This document shows, one piece after another, positions 11,497 to 15,856 of a stretch of DNA of 34,819 nt. Each line of letters starts with the position of its first letter. Position 1 is the first letter of the stretch. This stretch comes from a virus (Duplodnaviria > Heunggongvirae > Uroviricota > Caudoviricetes): IMG/VR virus record IMGVR_UViG_2693429713_000015, one strand, 5' to 3'. The position numbers and the translations under genes are program-made. A model generated the notes under the pieces. That model did no database searches. It saw only the letters and a list, made by a program, of their open reading frames with translations, and was not told the origin of the DNA.

Positions 11497-11712
11497 TTAT
11501 CCGGGGCGATTTTCTGACCTTATCCGGTCCAGGGCATAAGTAATACCTTCTGCAAAAACAGAAGTATCAAACTGCTTTTGTATTCCCTGAAAATGAAAAG
11601 CGGCACGACAGACACTCAGTTCTCCGCGGTATAACCGGATAATATCTTCCAGAACATTGTTCACTGCTTCAGCACGGCGCTGATGTTCTGTTAACGTTAA
11701 TCGGGGATTCAT
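11497..11712 (-). CDS. Hypothetical protein (71 aa)
   Basis: AAGGAG RBS 6 nt upstream of ATG at 11712; predicted helical, no recognised motif. Confidence 0.45.
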   Translation of the reverse strand: MNPRLTLTEHQRRAEAVNNVLEDIIRLYRGELSVCRAAFHFQGIQKQFDTSVFAEGITYALDRIRSENRPG

Positions 11713-11713
11713 G

Positions 11714-12115
11714 ATGCACTCCTTAAATGATGATTTTTATGTACTCACCGGCAAAATATTCTGCCGATTACTGAACACGCATCCGGCACCTCAGGTTTTG
11801 ATTTATTCTGGTTTTTTCGATATCCCGGACCAGGTTGATCACGACCAGAAAAAGTGCCGGTGTTTTATTGATACGCTGATATGGCTTCGGGATAACAGCT
11901 ATATTCGTTACTCTCAGTTGCTGGCTGTGGGAGCGGCTGATGTCGTCCTCACGGAAAAAACGCTCTGTCTGCTCAATGCCATGCCGACCTTTCTGCAGCC
12001 CCGGCCCGTACCATTTAAAGAGTCACTTCTGGATGCAGTAAAAACCGGTGAAAATGCAGTCATCGCTGAATGCGTATCCCGGATTATGCGTTACGTGTTT
12101 AATGAACGTAAGTGA
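11714..12115 (+). CDS. Hypothetical protein (about 133 aa), uncertain
   Basis: 405-nt ORF filling the gap between two minus-strand genes; weak GGGGA RBS; start is back-to-back with the 71-aa gene start and its 3' end overlaps the P-loop gene by 25 nt. Confidence 0.35.
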   Translation: MHSLNDDFYVLTGKIFCRLLNTHPAPQVLIYSGFFDIPDQVDHDQKKCRCFIDTLIWLRDNSYIRYSQLLAVGAADVVLTEKTLCLLNAMPTFLQPRPVPFKESLLDAVKTGENAVIAECVSRIMRYVFNERK

Positions 12116-12819
12116 GGTTTATCCGCTGTCTGCATAATCCCGATAGCCAGTGCGAGGGGAAGTAATTCCGGGGAAACTCTTTCAAACAGCGATGCCCATT
12201 CTCCTCTCGCCATCACTCTGTCCAGCCCGCCCTCCAGTTGCATTTCAGCAATCTTCCTGATTTCCCGGAACAACGCCGCTTTGATCTCTTCATGCTCAGC
12301 TTTATTTTCCGGTGTCAGAAGGTATTCGTCGAAGAACCGGGGAGGCTGGTTAATCGGGATGTGTTCCTGTTTGCCGTACTTCGGGGACGAACAACATTCT
12401 GTTGACTGACCAGTGAGTTTACGTAACTCCTTCATGAGCAGCTCCTGATCGTAAACTGTCATCAGTGCCGCAATGGTGGCATGCAGTGCATCGGGCAGTA
12501 TCCAGGGTTGCCGGCCCGTGGGGCATATAACATCCAGCAGCTCATTCGTCCGACAGATACGCTCCTCGCCGTATGACAACAGGCCCTGTCCCGTGTATTC
12601 CTCCAGCCTGATCACTGTGCCAGCCCGTGGTTTCTGCCATGTGCTCAGATCATCCCCACTCATACGGCGCTCACCGTCCACGTCTGCGGCGTCGACAATG
12701 ACGCTGTTTCCGAATTCCTGTTTCACCACTTCCTCTATTCGCGCCAGTACGTAACTTTTACCGCTGCCCACAGGACCGGACACGGTGACAGTGATGACCG
12801 GATTCAGTGTCTGCGTCAT
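12091..12819 (-). CDS. P-loop NTPase of unknown function (242 aa)
   Basis: Walker A GPVGSGKS at residues 15-22; possible Walker B VIVDAADVDG; GAGGAG RBS 8 nt upstream of ATG at 12819; C-terminal about 150 aa unrecognised. Confidence 0.6.
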   Translation of the reverse strand: MTQTLNPVITVTVSGPVGSGKSYVLARIEEVVKQEFGNSVIVDAADVDGERRMSGDDLSTWQKPRAGTVIRLEEYTGQGLLSYGEERICRTNELLDVICPTGRQPWILPDALHATIAALMTVYDQELLMKELRKLTGQSTECCSSPKYGKQEHIPINQPPRFFDEYLLTPENKAEHEEIKAALFREIRKIAEMQLEGGLDRVMARGEWASLFERVSPELLPLALAIGIMQTADKPHLRSLNT

Positions 12820-12949
12820 ATCGTATTCTCCTCTGTGAATAATTCATCGTTTATCCTGCACATCCCGTATCCCCGGCTCTCTTAACGCGCTTTAAAATCC
12901 TTCGCGCCCTGTATTTGTGATGCTGTCTCCACCAGATAAGGAGACACAC

Positions 12950-13300
12950 ATGAAAAAACTGAAAAAATTCATTCCCCCTGTTAAAAAACCTCGCCTCAGC
13001 GGCTGGCTGCTGACCTCAGTGCTGTTGCTGGGCACCATCGCTCTGGTCTCACCACAGCAGCTGCCTGTTGTGATCTACAAGCTGGCACTCATCACGCTGG
13101 CAGCAGTGCTGGGTTACTGGCTTGACCGTTCGCTCTTCCCCAAAGCCCGTCCCGGTCAGTACCTGAAACATGACGACAGGCTGATGGCTGAAGGGCGTTT
13201 CCCGGTACAGACCGGCCTTCACCTGGTGTTTTCTGCTGCGTTAATCCGCCGTGCACTGATTGTTGCAGCGGTCTGCCTGGCTGTTGCGATGGGGCTTTAA
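12950..13300 (+). CDS. Putative holin (three predicted TM segments)
   Basis: ATG at 12950 with AAGGAG RBS; three hydrophobic segments; immediately upstream of the endolysin. Confidence 0.55.
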   Translation: MKKLKKFIPPVKKPRLSGWLLTSVLLLGTIALVSPQQLPVVIYKLALITLAAVLGYWLDRSLFPKARPGQYLKHDDRLMAEGRFPVQTGLHLVFSAALIRRALIVAAVCLAVAMGL

Positions 13301-13302
13301 TC

Positions 13303-14043
13303 ATGAACTGGCCGCAGATCACCTGGATTGTATGCATGTCCCTGAAACTGGCTTTCGAAGCCTTTCGGGTCTTCATCAGAACCGAACGCCTGTCAGTCCG
13401 CGCCGGGACCTTTCTGGTTCATATGGCATGGGTATTCTTTGTCGCAATGTTGCTCTGGTGTGGCGGCTTTTTCAGCCAGGCATGCGCAGCACAACCTCCG
13501 CAGGCTGCGCTGCAGTATCGCGATGATGTGATCCGTAATGCCCGGCTTGAATGGGGACTGTCTGCGCCGGTGGCCGATTTCGCCGCGCAACTGCATCAGG
13601 AAAGCGGCTGGCGACCTGATGCGATCTCGCCGGCTGGCGCTCAGGGACTGGCGCAGTTCATGCCTGCCACTGCCGACTGGATAAGCCAGTTGATACCGAT
13701 GCTGAGCAGTCGTGAGCCGTTTAATCCGGCATGGGCTATCCGGGCGCTGGTCAGCTATGACCGCTGGCTGTGGCAGCGTGTCAGCGCCGCCAGTGACTGC
13801 GAGCGTATGGCCATGACACTGTCGGGCTATAACGGTGGTCTGGGCTGGGTACAACGGGACAGGCGGCTTGCATCACAGAAAGGTCTGGACAGCACCCGCT
13901 GGTTCGGACATGTCGCCACGGTGAATGCCGGACGCAATGCGGCCAGCTGGCGGGAGAACCGCCATTATCCGCAGCGCATCCTGCGCGAACTGGCACCGCG
14001 ATATCTCACATGGGGAGGCAGCAGTTGTGTGGCATCTGGTTAA
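13303..14043 (+). CDS. Endolysin, lytic transglycosylase (SLT domain) with N-terminal hydrophobic (possibly SAR) segment
   Basis: Motif ESGWRPDAISPAGAQGLAQFMP characteristic of SLT domains; hydrophobic stretch MAWVFFVAMLLWCGGFF precedes it; true start may be an internal Met. Confidence 0.8.
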   Translation: MNWPQITWIVCMSLKLAFEAFRVFIRTERLSVRAGTFLVHMAWVFFVAMLLWCGGFFSQACAAQPPQAALQYRDDVIRNARLEWGLSAPVADFAAQLHQESGWRPDAISPAGAQGLAQFMPATADWISQLIPMLSSREPFNPAWAIRALVSYDRWLWQRVSAASDCERMAMTLSGYNGGLGWVQRDRRLASQKGLDSTRWFGHVATVNAGRNAASWRENRHYPQRILRELAPRYLTWGGSSCVASG

Positions 14044-14677
14044 AAAGCTGCCGTGGCGCGGCATTCTGCTGGCCATTCTTATCAATGCCTTTCTGGTCGG
14101 CCTGTATGCCATGGGATACAGAAGTGGTCATGACTCTGCAAAGCGTGACGGTGATACCGCGCTAAGTCAGTTGCAGTCAGCATTTGACGCGTACAAAACG
14201 GAGCAGGCAACGCTTGAGAATGCTGCGCTGCGGGCCTGGGCCAGACGGTATCAGGAGCAGGTGGCCGCCGGGCAGCGGGCTGAAGCCGGTTATCTTGAGC
14301 AGATTGCTCAACTGGAGAGCCGGAACAAACAACTACAGGGGCAAATTAACGATGTCACACAGCGCTGGATTGATGAAAAAGGTAAGAGTCATCCCATTGA
14401 GTGCGTGTTTACTCGCGGTTTCGTGCGCCAGTACAACGCCGCACTCGGATATGACAACGCATCCGTCGACACCGGTCATTCAGACTCAGTTGCCGCCACT
14501 GGCACCCGCTCTGGCACAGCGACCGGGCAACCTGAAACCACTGACACCCGGTTACGCGATTCGGGTGTCTCCCAGCGTGACGTTCTCGCCAACATCATCG
14601 ACAACGCATGGCAATGTCGTCGCTGGCGGAACCAGATAAACGCGCTGCTGGATGAACGGGAAGGATTACAGAAATGA
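14027..14677 (+). CDS. Rz-like inner-membrane spanin
   Basis: Probable GTG start at 14027 with GGGAGG 9 nt upstream; N-terminal TM (ILLAILINAFLVGLYAM) then coiled coil; overlaps the endolysin stop. Confidence 0.6.
   Translation: MWHLVKKLPWRGILLAILINAFLVGLYAMGYRSGHDSAKRDGDTALSQLQSAFDAYKTEQATLENAALRAWARRYQEQVAAGQRAEAGYLEQIAQLESRNKQLQGQINDVTQRWIDEKGKSHPIECVFTRGFVRQYNAALGYDNASVDTGHSDSVAATGTRSGTATGQPETTDTRLRDSGVSQRDVLANIIDNAWQCRRWRNQINALLDEREGLQK
14373..14639 (+). CDS. Rz1-like outer-membrane lipoprotein spanin, embedded in Rz in another frame
   Basis: MKKVRVIPLSACLLAVSC lipoprotein-type signal with lipobox, then Pro-rich mature part; entirely inside the Rz gene. Confidence 0.65.
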   Translation: MKKVRVIPLSACLLAVSCASTTPHSDMTTHPSTPVIQTQLPPLAPALAQRPGNLKPLTPGYAIRVSPSVTFSPTSSTTHGNVVAGGTR

Positions 14678-15000
14678 CACTGCAGGTTGAATTCTGGACG
14701 GTGGTGAGTTTTCTGCTCACCTTCATGGGGTTTGTGGGAGGGCTCGCCAAATGGTTGTTCAGTAAAACAGAAGAACGCCAGGCGGCACGATTCGCCTCCC
14801 TTGAACAGGCCCTGCAACAATCCGCCTCCAACTGGGGCGAGCTGGAAAAAGAATTTATGCGATTTAAAGCGGATTTACCGCTGAATTATGTCCGTCGAGA
14901 GGATTATATCCGTGGCCAGACAGTCATTGAGGCCAAACTGGACGCGCTTTATAACAAACTGGAAGTGGTACAGCAGTACCGCAATACCGGAGGTCAATAA
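14674..15000 (+). CDS. Single-TM late protein (108 aa)
   Basis: N-terminal TM (FWTVVSFLLTFMGFVGGLA) followed by a coiled-coil tail. Confidence 0.5.
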   Translation: MTLQVEFWTVVSFLLTFMGFVGGLAKWLFSKTEERQAARFASLEQALQQSASNWGELEKEFMRFKADLPLNYVRREDYIRGQTVIEAKLDALYNKLEVVQQYRNTGGQ

Positions 15001-15311
15001 TGGTCGATATTACCCGGGTACGCCGCGAATCCCTGCGCTGGAGTCTGCTGGTTGCCCTGAACAAGACCCGCCCTTACACCGCCAGCGAGACGCTGCTGCT
15101 GGATGTGTCCCGTGCCATCTACCCGGACACCACACCGCTGGAACTGCGCCGCGAACTGGATTATCTGGCTGACCGTAAAATGGTTGAGCTGGAGAAAAAA
15201 CCTTCTGGCGACTGGTTTGCTGACCTGACCCGCCTCGGCGTAGACCTGGTGGAATACACCGTGGAATGTGGTCCGGGTATTGCCCGCCCGGAAAAGTACT
15301 GGAGTGAATAA
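15000..15311 (+). CDS. Hypothetical late protein (103 aa)
   Basis: ORF coupled to its neighbours (ATGA overlap); unknown. Confidence 0.45.
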   Translation: MVDITRVRRESLRWSLLVALNKTRPYTASETLLLDVSRAIYPDTTPLELRRELDYLADRKMVELEKKPSGDWFADLTRLGVDLVEYTVECGPGIARPEKYWSE

Positions 15312-15856
15312 TGGCCAGACGCAGCACAATAGAAAAGCTGCCGGAAGACGTGCGCCGCTGGCTTGAACGGGCGCTGACTGAATCCGGCTTCAGCGGGTAT
15401 AACGAGCTGGAGTCACTGTTGCGTGAGCGGGGGTACGTCATCAGCAAATCCGCTATCCATCGCTATGGACAGAAGATTGAGCGCCGCTATGGTGCTATCC
15501 GTGCGGCAACAGAAGCGGCCCGCATGCTGACCGAAGGCGCAGCAGACGATCAGGATGCGCGTTCGGAGGCTGTGATAGCCCTTATTCAGACCGAGCTGTT
15601 CGAGAGTATTGTCCAGTTGCAGGAGGCGGAAGAAGGCGAAGTCGATCCTAAAGAACGCGTGGCCCTGCTGTCGAAGGTGGCGAAGAATGTGGCTACGCTG
15701 TCCCGCGCGTCCGTCAACCTCAAAAAGTTCCAGTCTGAAGTACGGGCCAGAGCGCAGCAGGCAGCCAGCAACGCCGAGAAAATTGCCCGTAAGGGGGGAC
15801 TGTCAAGCGACGCAGTACAGGCGCTTCGTCGCGAGATTCTGGGGATTGCCACATGA
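15311..15856 (+). CDS. Terminase small subunit-like protein (DUF3486 type)
   Basis: 181 aa, immediately upstream of the large terminase; N-terminal RRSTIEKLPEDVRRWLERAL pattern as in Mu-like small terminases. Confidence 0.6.
   Translation: MARRSTIEKLPEDVRRWLERALTESGFSGYNELESLLRERGYVISKSAIHRYGQKIERRYGAIRAATEAARMLTEGAADDQDARSEAVIALIQTELFESIVQLQEAEEGEVDPKERVALLSKVAKNVATLSRASVNLKKFQSEVRARAQQAASNAEKIARKGGLSSDAVQALRREILGIAT

What the first reader, a model, noticed from the sequence alone, without database searches (positions are those of the whole stretch)
12950..14677. Lysis cassette with a lytic-transglycosylase endolysin carrying an N-terminal hydrophobic segment and an embedded Rz1
The endolysin has an SLT-type motif rather than a lysozyme fold and is preceded by a hydrophobic stretch that could act as a signal-anchor-release domain. 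The Rz1 lipoprotein gene (signal peptide, lipobox, Pro-rich mature part) lies wholly inside the Rz gene in another frame. The putative holin has three predicted TM segments. The Rz-like product (about 216 aa) is longer than typical Rz proteins.
Basis: partly seen in the sequence, partly recalled or inferred. Interest (0 to 1): 0.4.

Follow-up and report, generated by a model that had tools for sequence, protein, structure and literature searches.

The report
BcepMu-type phage lysis cassette
This is the ordinary host-lysis gene set (holin, cell-wall-cutting enzyme, two-part spanin with one gene nested in the other) of a common Mu-like E. coli prophage; the one unusual point is that the enzyme's membrane-targeting head is a small phage membrane protein fused onto it, and it looks like a cleavable export signal rather than a SAR domain.

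Summary
The window is about 99.9% identical to Escherichia phage PhiKM (Bcepmuvirus). The same cassette sits in 637 of 5,426 complete E. coli genomes.

- **Genes.** Holin 12950-13300 (Pfam Holin_2-3, 1e-41). SLT endolysin 13303-14043 (PF01464; Glu100 aligns with Slt70 Glu478). Rz 14027-14677 (PHROG Rz-like spanin, 4e-92). Rz1 14373-14639 in the +1 frame, 88 aa, lipobox Cys18.
- **Precedent.** BcepMu has carried this exact gene order, embedded Rz1 included, in its annotation since 2004.
- **Rz1 is conserved.** The frame is intact in 66 of 69 related enterobacterial loci with Rz only 70-100% identical, and also in BcepMu. Third-position diversity of Rz falls threefold inside the overlap.
- **Rz length.** 216 aa is normal for this Rz family.
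- **SAR reading only partly holds.** An export segment is always present. In the window it is as hydrophobic as the cassette's stable TMDs, it follows 35 charged residues, and a near-invariant A-x-A site follows it. Cleavage or assisted release is more likely than spontaneous SAR release.
- **New detail.** Residues 1-~58 are homologous to a free-standing ~53-aa phage membrane protein (phrog_5479). That protein is a separate gene in Pseudomonas phages Ps60 and Fc02.

Verdict: new member of a known kind, low to moderate interest.

The parts
12938..12943 (+). Shine-Dalgarno AAGGAG of the holin gene
   Evidence: Read directly from the sequence; 6 nt before ATG 12950.
12950..13300 (+). Holin, 116 aa. 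Basic N-terminus (7 K/R in the first 15 residues), TMDs about 16-34 and 40-58, and a C-terminal hydrophobic segment 90-116 split by a conserved RR.
   Evidence: Pfam PF13272 Holin_2-3 E=1.1e-41. phrog_1528 holin E=7.7e-55. Homologue of BcepMu gp21, annotated as holin. Hydropathy.
13303..14043 (+). Endolysin, 246 aa: an N-terminal membrane module fused to an SLT lytic transglycosylase domain.
   Evidence: PF01464 SLT E=1.8e-14. phrog_669 endolysin E=8.8e-69. 1,951 homologues at E<=1e-20, most about 240-246 aa in Enterobacterales. About 61% identical to BcepMu gp22 over the catalytic domain.
13303..13488 (+). N-terminal module, residues 1-62: MNWPQ head, amphipathic or charged segment 6-33, hydrophobic TMD about 35-57, then SQ-A60-C61-A62.
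   Evidence: Matches phrog_5479, a free-standing 53-aa protein family. Window E=4.4e-4 over 1-58; the KP12 homologue E=3.7e-15. Aligns end to end with the separate 52-aa gene Ps60_24. Hydropathy and hydrophobic moment.
13405..13473 (+). Hydrophobic transmembrane or export segment of the endolysin (residues 35-57, GTFLVHMAWVFFVAMLLWCGGFF).
   Evidence: Kyte-Doolittle 1.92 with 21% Gly/Ala/Ser/Thr. Hessa-type sum +0.27, similar to the other TMDs of the cassette. The LLWCGGFF motif is nearly invariant in homologues.
13480..13488 (+). A60-C61-A62: candidate signal peptidase I site, with cleavage predicted between A62 and A63.
   Evidence: Across 114 homologues, -3 is A/S/V in 108, -2 is highly variable, -1 is A/S in 114, and +1 is Ala in 110. 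SignalP predicted cleavage after the aligned AHA44 of KS10 gp09 (PMC2628397). Cleavage itself is not shown.
13600..13602 (+). Codon of Glu100, the predicted catalytic acid (HQ-E-S motif).
   Evidence: Aligns with Glu478 of Slt70 (1sly/1qsa) in the phmmer alignment. Invariant in 27 and in 36 homologues. The catalytic role of Slt70 Glu478 comes from established knowledge.
14027..14677 (+). Rz (i-spanin), 216 aa, GTG start overlapping the endolysin end by 17 nt. N-terminal TMD about residues 12-31; Cys126 and Cys197.
   Evidence: phrog_1403 Rz-like spanin E=4e-92, covering 3-216 of the protein and 4-212 of 212 profile positions. GGAGG 8 nt upstream of the GTG. Same start annotated in PhiKM and RefSeq. 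Homologue of BcepMu gp23 'Rz'.
14373..14639 (+). Rz1 (o-spanin), 88 aa, +1 frame, entirely inside Rz. Lipoprotein signal with lipobox LAVS|C, Cys18 codon at 14424-14426, Ala at +2. Mature 71 aa rich in Pro, Ser and Thr. An alternative upstream ATG at 14352 would give the same mature product.
   Evidence: Coordinates and sequence. An intact, embedded 88-aa Rz1 is present in 66 of 69 related enterobacterial loci, and a homologous embedded Rz1 is annotated in BcepMu as gp24. Rz third-position diversity is 0.294 outside the overlap and 0.096 inside it, falling to 0.041 over the signal and lipobox.
14674..15000 (+). 108-aa membrane protein, start overlapping the Rz stop (ATGA). Six-residue N-tail, TMD 7-25, then a basic junction and a helical cytoplasmic domain with the invariant motif LPxxYVRREDYxRGQxVIEAKLD. 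Probable extra member of the cassette; function unknown.
   Evidence: phrog_462 E=1.6e-36. Homologue of BcepMu gp25 'putative inner membrane protein' and of B3 ORF28. Same position, size and predicted N-out/C-in topology as the Mu gp25 releasin. No DUF2730 Pfam hit, and hhalign probability is below 1%.

Best explanation
This is the late-operon lysis cassette of a BcepMu-like, Mu-type transposable prophage of E. coli. It works like the known holin / exported endolysin / two-component spanin systems.

1. Shown from sequence: holin, endolysin, Rz/Rz1 and the next genes (108-aa membrane protein, gp26-like, TerS, TerL) are packed with 2-nt gaps or overlaps, so they are co-transcribed and probably translationally coupled.
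2. Inferred from family membership: the holin accumulates in the inner membrane and sets the time of lysis.
3. Inferred, with several lines of support: the endolysin is inserted co-translationally by its hydrophobic segment (residues 35-57). The SLT domain therefore sits in the periplasm before lysis. It does not wait in the cytoplasm for a large holin hole.
4. Inferred: in this E. coli variant the first 35 residues form a charged amphipathic cytoplasmic helix. In most relatives the same stretch is a first TMD, giving an N-out hairpin.
5. Inferred: release of the enzyme is most likely by signal peptidase I at A60-x-A62|A63. That would give a 20.5-kDa periplasmic SLT domain and leave a 7.2-kDa membrane peptide. 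My estimates are about 0.45 for cleavage, about 0.25 for an uncleaved anchor freed or activated on holin-driven depolarisation (SAR-like, perhaps helped by the downstream 108-aa protein), and about 0.15 for a permanent anchor.
6. Inferred from homology: the SLT domain cuts MurNAc-GlcNAc bonds non-hydrolytically, using Glu100.
7. Inferred from family and sequence signals: Rz (inner membrane) and Rz1 (outer-membrane lipoprotein, acylated on Cys18, sorted outward because +2 is Ala) span the periplasm. Once the murein is gone they disrupt the outer membrane.
For: Identity of the element:
- 99.9% identity to phage PhiKM, classified in Bcepmuvirus.
- Same gene order as BcepMu gp21-gp28, annotated as holin, SLT, Rz, embedded Rz1, inner-membrane protein, gp26, TerS and TerL.

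Family assignments.

Export of the endolysin:
- Every homologue, however different its N-terminus, has a hydrophobic export signal directly before the conserved catalytic domain. The types seen are a two-segment module, a different two-TMD module, a plain signal peptide, a lipobox type, and the BcepMu and KS10 types.
- No conserved internal start lies after that signal.
- Two Cys of the catalytic domain (C166, C242) are invariant. That fits a periplasmic disulfide.

Cleavage:
- The A-x-A statistics.
- The published SignalP prediction for KS10.

Against spontaneous SAR release:
- Composition and hydrophobicity of the segment.
- The charged 35-residue N-tail, read against the Mu K6/K7 result.

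Spanins:
- Conservation of the Rz1 frame, start, lipobox and stop.
- The codon-position test.
- Rz1 spans 0.53-0.94 L of Rz, the typical range for embedded spanins (PMC6139136).
Against: - No signal-peptide or topology predictor was available, and nothing here is experimental.
- The h-region (about 22-24 residues from R33 to F57) is long for a cleaved signal peptide. It would also suit an uncleaved anchor.
- The Young laboratory classed the related Pseudomonas SLT endolysins (Fc02/Ps60 type) as SAR endolysins (PMC9239132).
- The second segment of the KP12-type variant is less hydrophobic (+3.45), so some relatives could be SAR-like.
- If the enzyme is secreted and cleaved, what keeps it harmless until the holin fires remains unexplained.
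- The AlphaFold model was poor (pLDDT 57.8).
Confidence: 0.6

Rival explanations
1. SAR endolysin. The N-terminal TMD exports the SLT domain uncleaved and holds it inactive in the inner membrane. When a (pin)holin depolarises the membrane, the TMD slides out into the periplasm and the enzyme refolds into its active form.
For: - There is an N-terminal TMD on an endolysin that sits next to a small holin.
- Chamblee et al. class the SLT endolysins of the related Pseudomonas Mu-like siphophages as SAR endolysins (supplement). Their catalytic domains are about 60% identical to this one.
- The KP12-type second segment is only moderately hydrophobic.
- CPT annotators use the label 'SAR endolysin transglycosylase' for phage Sonora.
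Against: - In the window the segment has 21% Gly/Ala/Ser/Thr and an insertion score of +0.27, like stable TMDs. Mu gp22 scores +7.5.
- Release would have to drag 35 residues carrying 5 basic side chains, or a whole first TMD in relatives, across the membrane. Two lysines suffice to block release in Mu.
- The near-invariant A-x-A has no role in an uncleaved SAR domain.
Confidence: 0.25
2. Stably anchored endolysin that needs a dedicated helper. The 108-aa N-out/C-in membrane protein encoded right after Rz (14674-15000) would act like the Mu gp25 releasin and free the endolysin from the membrane. The holin would then play only a secondary role.
For: - The 108-aa protein has the same position (within five genes downstream of the endolysin), size, single N-terminal TMD and helical cytoplasmic domain as Mu gp25.
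- It is conserved with the cassette in BcepMu, B3, Ps60 and many Enterobacterales.
- Fc02 has a DUF2730 protein in exactly that slot, next to the same type of SLT endolysin.
- The basic cytoplasmic N-tail of the endolysin resembles the feature that makes Mu gp22 depend on its releasin.
- UniRef names two family members DUF2730.
Against: - No Pfam DUF2730 hit for any of 25 members at E<=1.
- hhalign probability below 1%.
- Unfiltered HMM scores of 10.6 bits or less.
- A holin is present here, unlike in Mu.
- DUF2730 proteins also occur alongside cytoplasmic endolysins, so position alone is weak evidence.
Confidence: 0.15
3. Canonical cytoplasmic endolysin. Translation would start downstream of the hydrophobic region, and the enzyme would reach the wall only through holin holes. 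The upstream hydrophobic ORF part would then be a separate small protein or untranslated.
For: - In Ps60 and Fc02 the N-module is a separate 52-aa gene.
- A few E. coli records carry frameshifted versions that split the module from the enzyme (P0267, P0279).
Against: - In the window and in 62 of 68 related loci the frame runs unbroken from MxWPQ into the catalytic domain.
- There is no Met between residue 41 and residue 120, and no Shine-Dalgarno before the only in-frame GTG (V76).
- Even in Ps60, the separate endolysin gene has its own signal or lipobox (MKRLLTLGLLGLLTAC).
- All homologues keep an export signal.
Confidence: 0.03

Closest known systems
Burkholderia phage BcepMu lysis cassette gp21-gp24 plus gp25 (AY539836; Summer et al. 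2004, J Mol Biol 340:49; paper not held, annotation read)
   Same: - Homologous genes in the same order: Holin_2-3 holin, SLT endolysin with an N-terminal export signal, Rz, Rz1 embedded out of frame and Pro-rich, inner-membrane protein, gp26-like, TerS, TerL.
- The Rz1 proteins share the PL(T/I)PGYA motif.
- The catalytic domains are about 61% identical.
   Different: - BcepMu gp22 has a plain 20-residue signal peptide (MRVLIAFVVALLGAAAPVAA|Q). The window enzyme has a 62-residue module.
- Rz is only about 32% identical.
- The host is Burkholderia.
Pseudomonas phages B3 (ORF24-28) and Ps60/Fc02 (Beetrevirus and relatives)
   Same: - Same holin family and same SLT catalytic domain (52-60% identity).
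- Same Rz family, and the phrog_462 protein is present in B3 and Ps60.
- B3 also carries the N-module fused to the enzyme.
   Different: - In Ps60 and Fc02 the module is a separate 52-aa gene, and the endolysin has its own short signal with a lipobox-like LLTAC.
- The B3 Rz1 runs 7 nt past the Rz stop, so it is overlapped rather than embedded.
- An extra small ORF lies between the endolysin and Rz.
- Fc02 has a DUF2730 protein in the slot after Rz.
Lambda Rz/Rz1 embedded two-component spanin (Summer 2007; Kongari et al. 2018, PMC6139136)
   Same: - The o-spanin gene lies wholly inside the i-spanin gene in the +1 frame.
- It starts near 0.5 L and ends near 0.9 L.
- The o-spanin has a lipoprotein signal and a Pro-rich mature part. 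The i-spanin has an N-terminal TMD.
- BcepMu and phiE255 are listed there as an embedded family.
   Different: - No detectable sequence similarity to lambda Rz or Rz1.
- Rz is 216 aa against 153 (recalled). Mature Rz1 is 71 aa against 40 (the 40 is).
- Mature Rz1 has no Cys other than the lipidated one, so an Rz1-Rz1 disulfide as in lambda is not possible.
SAR endolysins (P1 Lyz, phage 21 R, Mu gp22)
   Same: An N-terminal membrane segment exports the catalytic domain through Sec before lysis. The gene sits beside a small holin or releasin.
   Different: - Those enzymes are muramidases of the T4-lysozyme type. This one is an SLT transglycosylase.
- Their SAR domains are Gly/Ala-rich, weakly hydrophobic, uncleaved, and follow a short tail.
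- Here the segment is strongly hydrophobic, follows 35 residues, and is followed by A-x-A.
Signal-peptide (secreted) endolysins: Oenococcus phage fOg44 Lys44; predicted for Burkholderia phage KS10 gp09 (PMC2628397)
   Same: - Sec signal with a predicted signal peptidase I site.
- KS10 gp09 is a true homologue, and its predicted cleavage site aligns with A60-x-A62.
   Different: - Here the signal is internal, preceded by 35 residues or by a first TMD.
- fOg44 infects a Gram-positive host and its enzyme is unrelated.
Mu gp25 releasin (DUF2730; Chamblee et al. 2022, PMC9239132)
   Same: The 108-aa product of 14674-15000 shares its position in the operon, its size of about 100 aa, its N-out/C-in single TMD and its helical cytoplasmic domain.
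   Different: No demonstrable homology. The cassette here also has a holin, which Mu lacks.

Membership tests
Two-component spanin, embedded architecture (Rz/Rz1 type) | [quoted passage not shown] | tested here: met
   phrog_1403 Rz-like spanin E=4e-92. The TMD ILLAILINAFLVGLYAMGY scores -0.06. Coiled-coil content was not tested separately.
Two-component spanin, embedded architecture (Rz/Rz1 type) | o-spanin with a lipoprotein signal and lipobox Cys, and no Asp at +2 (outer-membrane sorting) | tested here: met
   MKKVRVIPLSACLLAVS|C18-A19. It fits the PROSITE PS51257 rule as recalled. The Cys is conserved in 67 of the 68 enterobacterial loci that yielded a candidate Rz1, the exception being the degraded L073. 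No lipoprotein predictor was available.
Two-component spanin, embedded architecture (Rz/Rz1 type) | o-spanin gene wholly inside the i-spanin gene in another frame | tested here: met
   14373-14639 lies inside 14027-14677, in the +1 frame, from 0.53 L to 0.94 L.
Two-component spanin, embedded architecture (Rz/Rz1 type) | The embedded frame is conserved and under selection | tested here: met
   An intact 88-aa embedded ORF in 66 of 69 related enterobacterial loci with Rz 70-100% identical, and an embedded 74-aa homologue in BcepMu. Rz third-position diversity is 0.294 outside the overlap and 0.096 inside it.
Two-component spanin, embedded architecture (Rz/Rz1 type) | Required for outer-membrane disruption | not testable with these tools
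   Needs genetics: Rz1 C18S or nonsense mutants scored in Mg2+-stabilised cultures.
SLT-domain lytic transglycosylase (Pfam PF01464) | Profile match above the curated threshold | tested here: met
   53.8 bits against a cut-off of 21.3.
SLT-domain lytic transglycosylase (Pfam PF01464) | Catalytic Glu in the E-S motif | tested here: met
   Glu100-Ser101 aligns with Slt70 Glu478-Ser479. Invariant in homologues.
SLT-domain lytic transglycosylase (Pfam PF01464) | Forms 1,6-anhydroMurNAc products | not testable with these tools
   Needs a biochemical assay.
BcepMu-type holin (Pfam PF13272 Holin_2-3) | Profile match, 2-3 TMDs, gene directly upstream of the endolysin | tested here: met
   141.8 bits against a cut-off of 27. 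Two strong TMDs and one weaker. The stop is 2 nt before the endolysin ATG. Hole formation is not testable here.
SAR endolysin | Export TMD weakly hydrophobic and rich in Gly/Ala/Ser/Thr | tested here: not met
   21% Gly/Ala/Ser/Thr, against 53-63% for recalled P1 and phage 21 sequences. Insertion score +0.27 against +7.5 for Mu gp22.
SAR endolysin | Short cytoplasmic N-tail with few basic residues | tested here: not met
   35 residues with K15, R22, R26, R29, R33, E19 and E28. In relatives the same stretch is a whole extra TMD.
SAR endolysin | Uncleaved; released on membrane depolarisation | not testable with these tools
   The conserved A-x-A argues for cleavage, but only Western blots and fractionation can decide.
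Sec signal-peptide (secreted) endolysin | c-region obeying the -3/-1 rule, directly before the mature domain | tested here: met
   -3 is A/S/V in 108 of 114 homologues, -1 is A/S in 114 of 114, and -2 is variable.
Sec signal-peptide (secreted) endolysin | Typical n- and h-regions at the extreme N-terminus | tested here: inconclusive
   In the window the signal is internal and its h-region is about 22-24 residues long. Other family members (BcepMu, P0111-P0119) do have classical signal peptides. SignalP was not available; a published SignalP prediction exists for KS10.
Releasin / DUF2730 (for the 108-aa product of 14674-15000) | Match to Pfam PF10805 | tested here: not met
   No hit at E<=10 for the window protein, nor at E<=1 for any of 25 family members. 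Mu gp25, as a control, hits at 2.5e-13. hhalign probability is below 1%.
Releasin / DUF2730 (for the 108-aa product of 14674-15000) | About 100 aa, N-out/C-in single TMD, within five genes downstream of the endolysin in a Mu-like phage | tested here: met
   TMD at residues 7-25 with a basic junction, KWLFSK. It is the second gene after the endolysin. The criteria are taken from PMC9239132.

The most novel reading that the evidence does not exclude
The 62-residue head of the endolysin may be more than an export signal. It would be a domesticated copy of a widespread small two-TMD phage membrane protein (phrog_5479) with a job of its own. Signal peptidase would split the fusion into a periplasmic SLT enzyme and a 7-kDa membrane peptide. 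That peptide would then take part in lysis control, for example as an antiholin, a holin partner or a tether. This would explain two things: why Ps60 and Fc02 keep it as a separate gene between holin and endolysin, and why near-identical E. coli cassettes swap variants of it. The cassette would then be a case of gene fusion and fission coupling the amounts of two lysis factors, and a secreted rather than SAR endolysin system in Gram-negative Mu-like phages.
Probability: 0.2. Interest if true: 0.5.

Novelty: new member of a known kind. Interest (0 to 1): 0.25.

Why it matters
The practical value is mostly in annotation.
- This cassette is in about 12% of complete E. coli genomes, yet Rz1 is annotated neither in the PhiKM record nor in RefSeq. 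PhiKM calls the holin 'hypothetical' and labels Rz 'putative lipoprotein'.
- The biological point of interest is narrow. The family's SLT endolysin always carries an export signal, and that signal is swapped freely between plain signal peptide, lipobox, and one- or two-TMD modules.
- If the enzyme is secreted and cleaved rather than SAR-tethered, these very common prophages become a Gram-negative test case for how a periplasmic endolysin is kept silent until the holin fires.
- The fused small membrane protein and the conserved 108-aa protein would be the obvious candidates for that control.

Tried and rejected
- AlphaFold2 of the endolysin with a 36-sequence alignment gave mean pLDDT 57.8 and a poor catalytic domain. 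I ran no fold search and drew no structural conclusion from it.
- Homology of the 108-aa protein to the Mu gp25 releasin failed every test: BLASTP none, a chance-level match to Fc02_26, no Pfam hit, hhalign probability below 1%, and unfiltered HMMs at 10.6 bits or less. I rejected membership and kept it only as a positional and topological analogue.
- Pfam and NCBIfam give nothing for Rz, Rz1 or the holin beyond the hits reported. PHROG hits for Rz1 are non-significant.
- The sigma-70 promoter scan of 12700-15400 found no sites, and terminator-like sites were at chance level. This fits a late, activator-dependent operon but proves nothing.
- I checked whether the odd N-module of the window arose from a compensated frameshift of the KP12 type. 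The DNA is simply divergent between two conserved ends.
- I checked whether free-standing phrog_5479 genes always sit in lysis cassettes. In 6 of 6 sampled metagenome or genome contigs they lie among small early-region genes or before HNH/terminase, with no recognisable endolysin beside them. A general lysis role for the free protein is therefore not supported.
- The PADLOC scan of the neighbouring minus-strand genes found nothing significant.
- The BcepMu paper itself (Summer 2004) is not in the library. Only its GenBank annotation was used.

Full report
**What the window is.**
- Bases 12800-15000 are 99.9% identical to Escherichia phage PhiKM. That phage comes from a uropathogenic E. coli and is classified in Bcepmuvirus.
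- The same stretch is 84-88% identical to Klebsiella phage KP12 and to phage Phi06_2974 B.
- The 2-kb cassette occurs in 637 of 5,426 complete E. coli genomes, in 476 of them at 99% identity or more.
- The genes downstream are Mu-type gp27 (TerS) and gp28 (TerL) homologues. The element is therefore a BcepMu-like, Mu-type transposable prophage.

**Checking the observation.** ORFs and sequence give four genes.
- Holin, 12950-13300. It has an AAGGAG ribosome-binding site. Pfam Holin_2-3 E=1.1e-41; phrog_1528 E=7.7e-55.
- Endolysin, 13303-14043. Pfam SLT at 53.8 bits against a cut-off of 21.3; phrog_669 E=8.8e-69.
- Rz, 14027-14677. GTG start with GGAGG 8 nt upstream; phrog_1403 'Rz-like spanin' E=4e-92.
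- Rz1, 14373-14639, in the +1 frame.

A sequence search of the PDB aligns the endolysin with the catalytic domain of E. coli Slt70. Glu100-Ser101 falls on Slt70 Glu478-Ser479, and Glu100 is invariant in homologues.

The PhiKM and RefSeq annotations use the same starts for the holin, endolysin and Rz. Neither annotates Rz1.

**Rz1.**
- The product is MKKVRVIPLSACLLAVS|C18 ASTTP..., with Ala at +2. The mature part is 71 residues with 11 Pro and 20 Ser/Thr.
- I fetched 68 related loci from IMG/VR with the Rz protein and added PhiKM, KP12, Phi06, BcepMu and B3.
- In the 69 related enterobacterial loci (PhiKM, KP12, Phi06 and 66 IMG/VR loci), the +1 frame is open for at least 96 codons in every one. 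The +2 frame is open for only 29-64 codons.
- An intact, fully embedded 88-aa Rz1 with its start, lipobox Cys and stop in place is present in 66 of them, while Rz identity ranges from 70 to 100%.
- The three exceptions: L072 keeps Rz1 but has a truncated Rz. L073 has lost the lipobox Cys (Cys to Tyr) and the stop. L049 gave no lipoprotein candidate.
- BcepMu Rz is only about 32% identical, yet it has an embedded Rz1 with a lipobox and the shared PL(T/I)PGYA motif.
- In 49 unique Rz genes, third-codon-position diversity is 0.294 upstream of the overlap. It is 0.096 inside the overlap, and 0.041 across the Rz1 signal and lipobox. That is the pattern expected if the second frame is under selection.
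- Rz1 spans 0.53-0.94 of the Rz length. Kongari et al. describe this as the typical range for embedded spanins (PMC6139136).

**Rz length.** 216 aa is not unusual for this family. The PHROG profile has 212 positions. BcepMu, B3 and KP12 Rz are 199, 203 and 217 aa.

**Already known.** The BcepMu GenBank record annotates the following:
- gp21: holin
- gp22: soluble lytic murein transglycosylase
- gp23: Rz
- gp24: 'Rz1, out of frame, embedded proline-rich protein'
- gp25: putative inner membrane protein
- gp26
- gp27: TerS
- gp28: TerL

That is the same order as here. BcepMu and phiE255 are listed as an embedded spanin family in Kongari et al.. The cassette as such is a new member of a known kind.

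An alignment of 27 homologues and the N-termini of 120 homologues show a highly conserved catalytic domain that starts at A63-QPP. Interchangeable export modules precede it:
- The commonest in Enterobacterales is MxWPQI(T)-[hydrophobic 1]-charged loop-[hydrophobic 2 ending in LLWCGGFF]-SQ-A-x-A-A.
- The window, P0001 and P0003 carry a variant whose first segment is not a TMD. It scores +5.7. It is an amphipathic helix with K15, E19, R22, R26, E28, R29 and R33, and a hydrophobic moment of 0.49-0.55.
- Other homologues have a different two-TMD module, a plain signal peptide (BcepMu, P0111-P0119), or a lipobox type (P0099 LLSGC; Ps60_25 LLTAC).

Near-identical cassettes, with Rz at 97% identity or more, carry either the window-type or the KP12-type module. 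The module is therefore exchanged as a unit.

**Origin of the module.**
- The first 59 residues of the KP12 enzyme match phrog_5479 over its full length (E=3.7e-15). That family consists of free-standing 53-aa proteins of unknown function. The window's first 63 residues match it at E=4.4e-4.
- In Pseudomonas phages Ps60 and Fc02 this protein is a separate 52-aa gene between the holin and an SLT endolysin that has its own short signal. In B3 it is fused, as it is here.
- The free and fused forms align end to end. P4, Q5 and GGFF are invariant.
- A profile search found more than 100 clusters of free-standing 52-62-aa homologues.
- In six sampled contigs these lie among small early-region genes or before HNH/terminase, not beside a recognisable endolysin. 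The free protein is therefore not a dedicated lysis factor everywhere.
- Diversity by codon position in the module is 0.28, 0.21 and 0.40. The frame is unbroken into the catalytic domain in 62 of 68 loci. The module is translated as part of the enzyme.

**SAR, or something else?**

For export:
- Every homologue keeps some signal directly before the domain.
- No conserved internal start exists.
- Two Cys of the domain (C166, C242) are invariant.

Against a classical SAR domain:
- The segment GTFLVHMAWVFFVAMLLWCGGFF has only 21% Gly/Ala/Ser/Thr.
- Its summed insertion score is +0.27. That sits with the holin TMDs (+0.4, +1.1), the Rz TMD (-0.06) and the TMD of the 108-aa protein (+0.55).
- It follows 35 residues bearing five basic side chains. 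In Mu, lysines 6 and 7 of the tail are enough to prevent spontaneous release (PMC9239132).

For cleavage:
- In 114 homologues the residues before the domain read F-S-Q-A-x-A-A.
- Taking cleavage after A-x-A, position -3 is A/S/V in 108, -2 is highly variable (N, H, R, D, A, C, S, Q), and -1 is A/S in all 114.
- The motif persists in BcepMu (VAA|Q), B3 (AKA|D) and KS10 (AHA|Q), even though their signals are unrelated.
- Goudie et al. reported a SignalP cleavage prediction between residues 44 and 45 of the KS10 enzyme, which is this site. They compared it with the secreted endolysin of fOg44 (PMC2628397).

Against cleavage:
- The h-region here is long.
- Chamblee et al. treat the Pseudomonas relatives as SAR endolysins.

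I could not run a signal-peptide predictor. My estimate is export about 0.9. Within that, cleavage is about 0.45, SAR-like or assisted release about 0.25, and a permanent anchor about 0.15.

**The gene after Rz.**
- The ORF at 14674-15000 overlaps the Rz stop (ATGA). It encodes a 108-aa protein with a six-residue N-tail, one TMD and a helical domain with an invariant YVRREDYxRGQ-VIEAKLD motif.
- It belongs to phrog_462, along with BcepMu gp25 and B3 ORF28.
- It has the position, size and predicted topology of the Mu gp25 releasin. Fc02 has a DUF2730 protein in the same slot.
- Homology could not be shown, although UniRef names two members DUF2730.
- I record it as a probable fifth member of the cassette with unknown function.

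**Mechanism.**
1. The holin times lysis.
2. The SLT enzyme is already across the inner membrane.
3. The enzyme is freed or activated by signal peptidase, by depolarisation, or by both, and cuts the glycan strands using Glu100.
4. Rz and Rz1 then breach the outer membrane.

Family membership, gene order, overlaps and conservation are shown. Topology, cleavage, timing and spanin function are inferred.

**Verdict.** This is a new member of a known kind. The fused phrog_5479 module and the A-x-A site are modest additions that I did not find described in the papers I could read.

Noticed in passing
window 14674-15000: A 108-aa N-out/C-in membrane protein (phrog_462; homologue of BcepMu gp25 and B3 ORF28), translationally coupled to Rz. 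It occupies the slot of the Mu gp25 releasin, and Fc02 has a DUF2730 protein there. No homology to DUF2730 could be shown.
   Followed up: yes
window 13303-13488; L076 2253-2411 (Ps60_24); L077 1615-1773 (Fc02_22): The endolysin's 62-residue head is homologous to a free-standing ~53-aa two-TMD phage protein family (phrog_5479). It is fused in the window, KP12 and B3, and is a separate gene in Ps60 and Fc02.
   Followed up: yes
homologues P0001-P0120 of window 13303-14043: One conserved SLT catalytic domain carries at least six different N-terminal export modules: two kinds of two-TMD module, an amphipathic-helix-plus-TMD variant, plain signal peptides, lipobox signals, and collapsed single TMDs. 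All end in A-x-A or a lipobox.
   Followed up: partly
L082, L084, L086, L089, L090, L091 (metagenome and genome contigs): Free-standing phrog_5479 homologues (motif WPQI..HGxPRxGKxxF..LLWCGGFFG) sit among small early-region genes (near SSB, NinB, RusA, helicase, methylase) or just before HNH/terminase. They are not next to a recognisable endolysin. Their own function is unknown.
   Followed up: partly
L013, L015, L016, L025 versus L017, L021, L046, L074: Cassettes whose Rz genes are 97% identical or more carry either the KP12-type or the window-type N-module on the endolysin. This is a local mosaic swap between two conserved DNA ends (ATGAACTGGCC... and ...CTCTGGTGTGGCGGCTT).
   Followed up: partly
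window 14373-14639; L001 (PhiKM); L088 (RefSeq E. coli TUM1857): Rz1 is not annotated in the PhiKM GenBank record or in the RefSeq E. coli record inspected. PhiKM labels Rz 'putative lipoprotein' and the holin 'hypothetical protein'. The cassette is in 637 of 5,426 complete E. coli genomes.
   Followed up: yes
proteins P0267, P0279 (E. coli chromosomes): Frameshifted copies end the window-type N-module shortly after LLWCGGFF, giving 73-74-aa ORFs. These are pseudogenes, sequencing errors, or natural fission of the fusion.
   Followed up: no
window 12091-12819 (minus strand) and 11711-12115 (plus strand): A 242-aa protein with a Walker A motif (GPVGSGKS; phrog_3787, unknown function) and a 134-aa protein (phrog_2266) fill the slot between the early region and the holin. 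KP12 and BcepMu carry different genes there, so this is a variable 'moron' position. PADLOC gave only non-significant hits.
   Followed up: partly
window 13303-14043, residues C166 and C242: Two cysteines of the catalytic domain are invariant across all aligned homologues, BcepMu, B3 and KS10 included. This suggests a periplasmic disulfide. Mature Rz1 has no Cys other than the lipidated one, unlike lambda Rz1.
   Followed up: no
L005 (phage B3) 3738-4046: In B3 the Rz1-like ORF runs 7 nt past the Rz stop (overlapped rather than embedded), whereas Kongari et al. list B3 among embedded families. This depends on start and stop calls that I did not check further.
   Followed up: no
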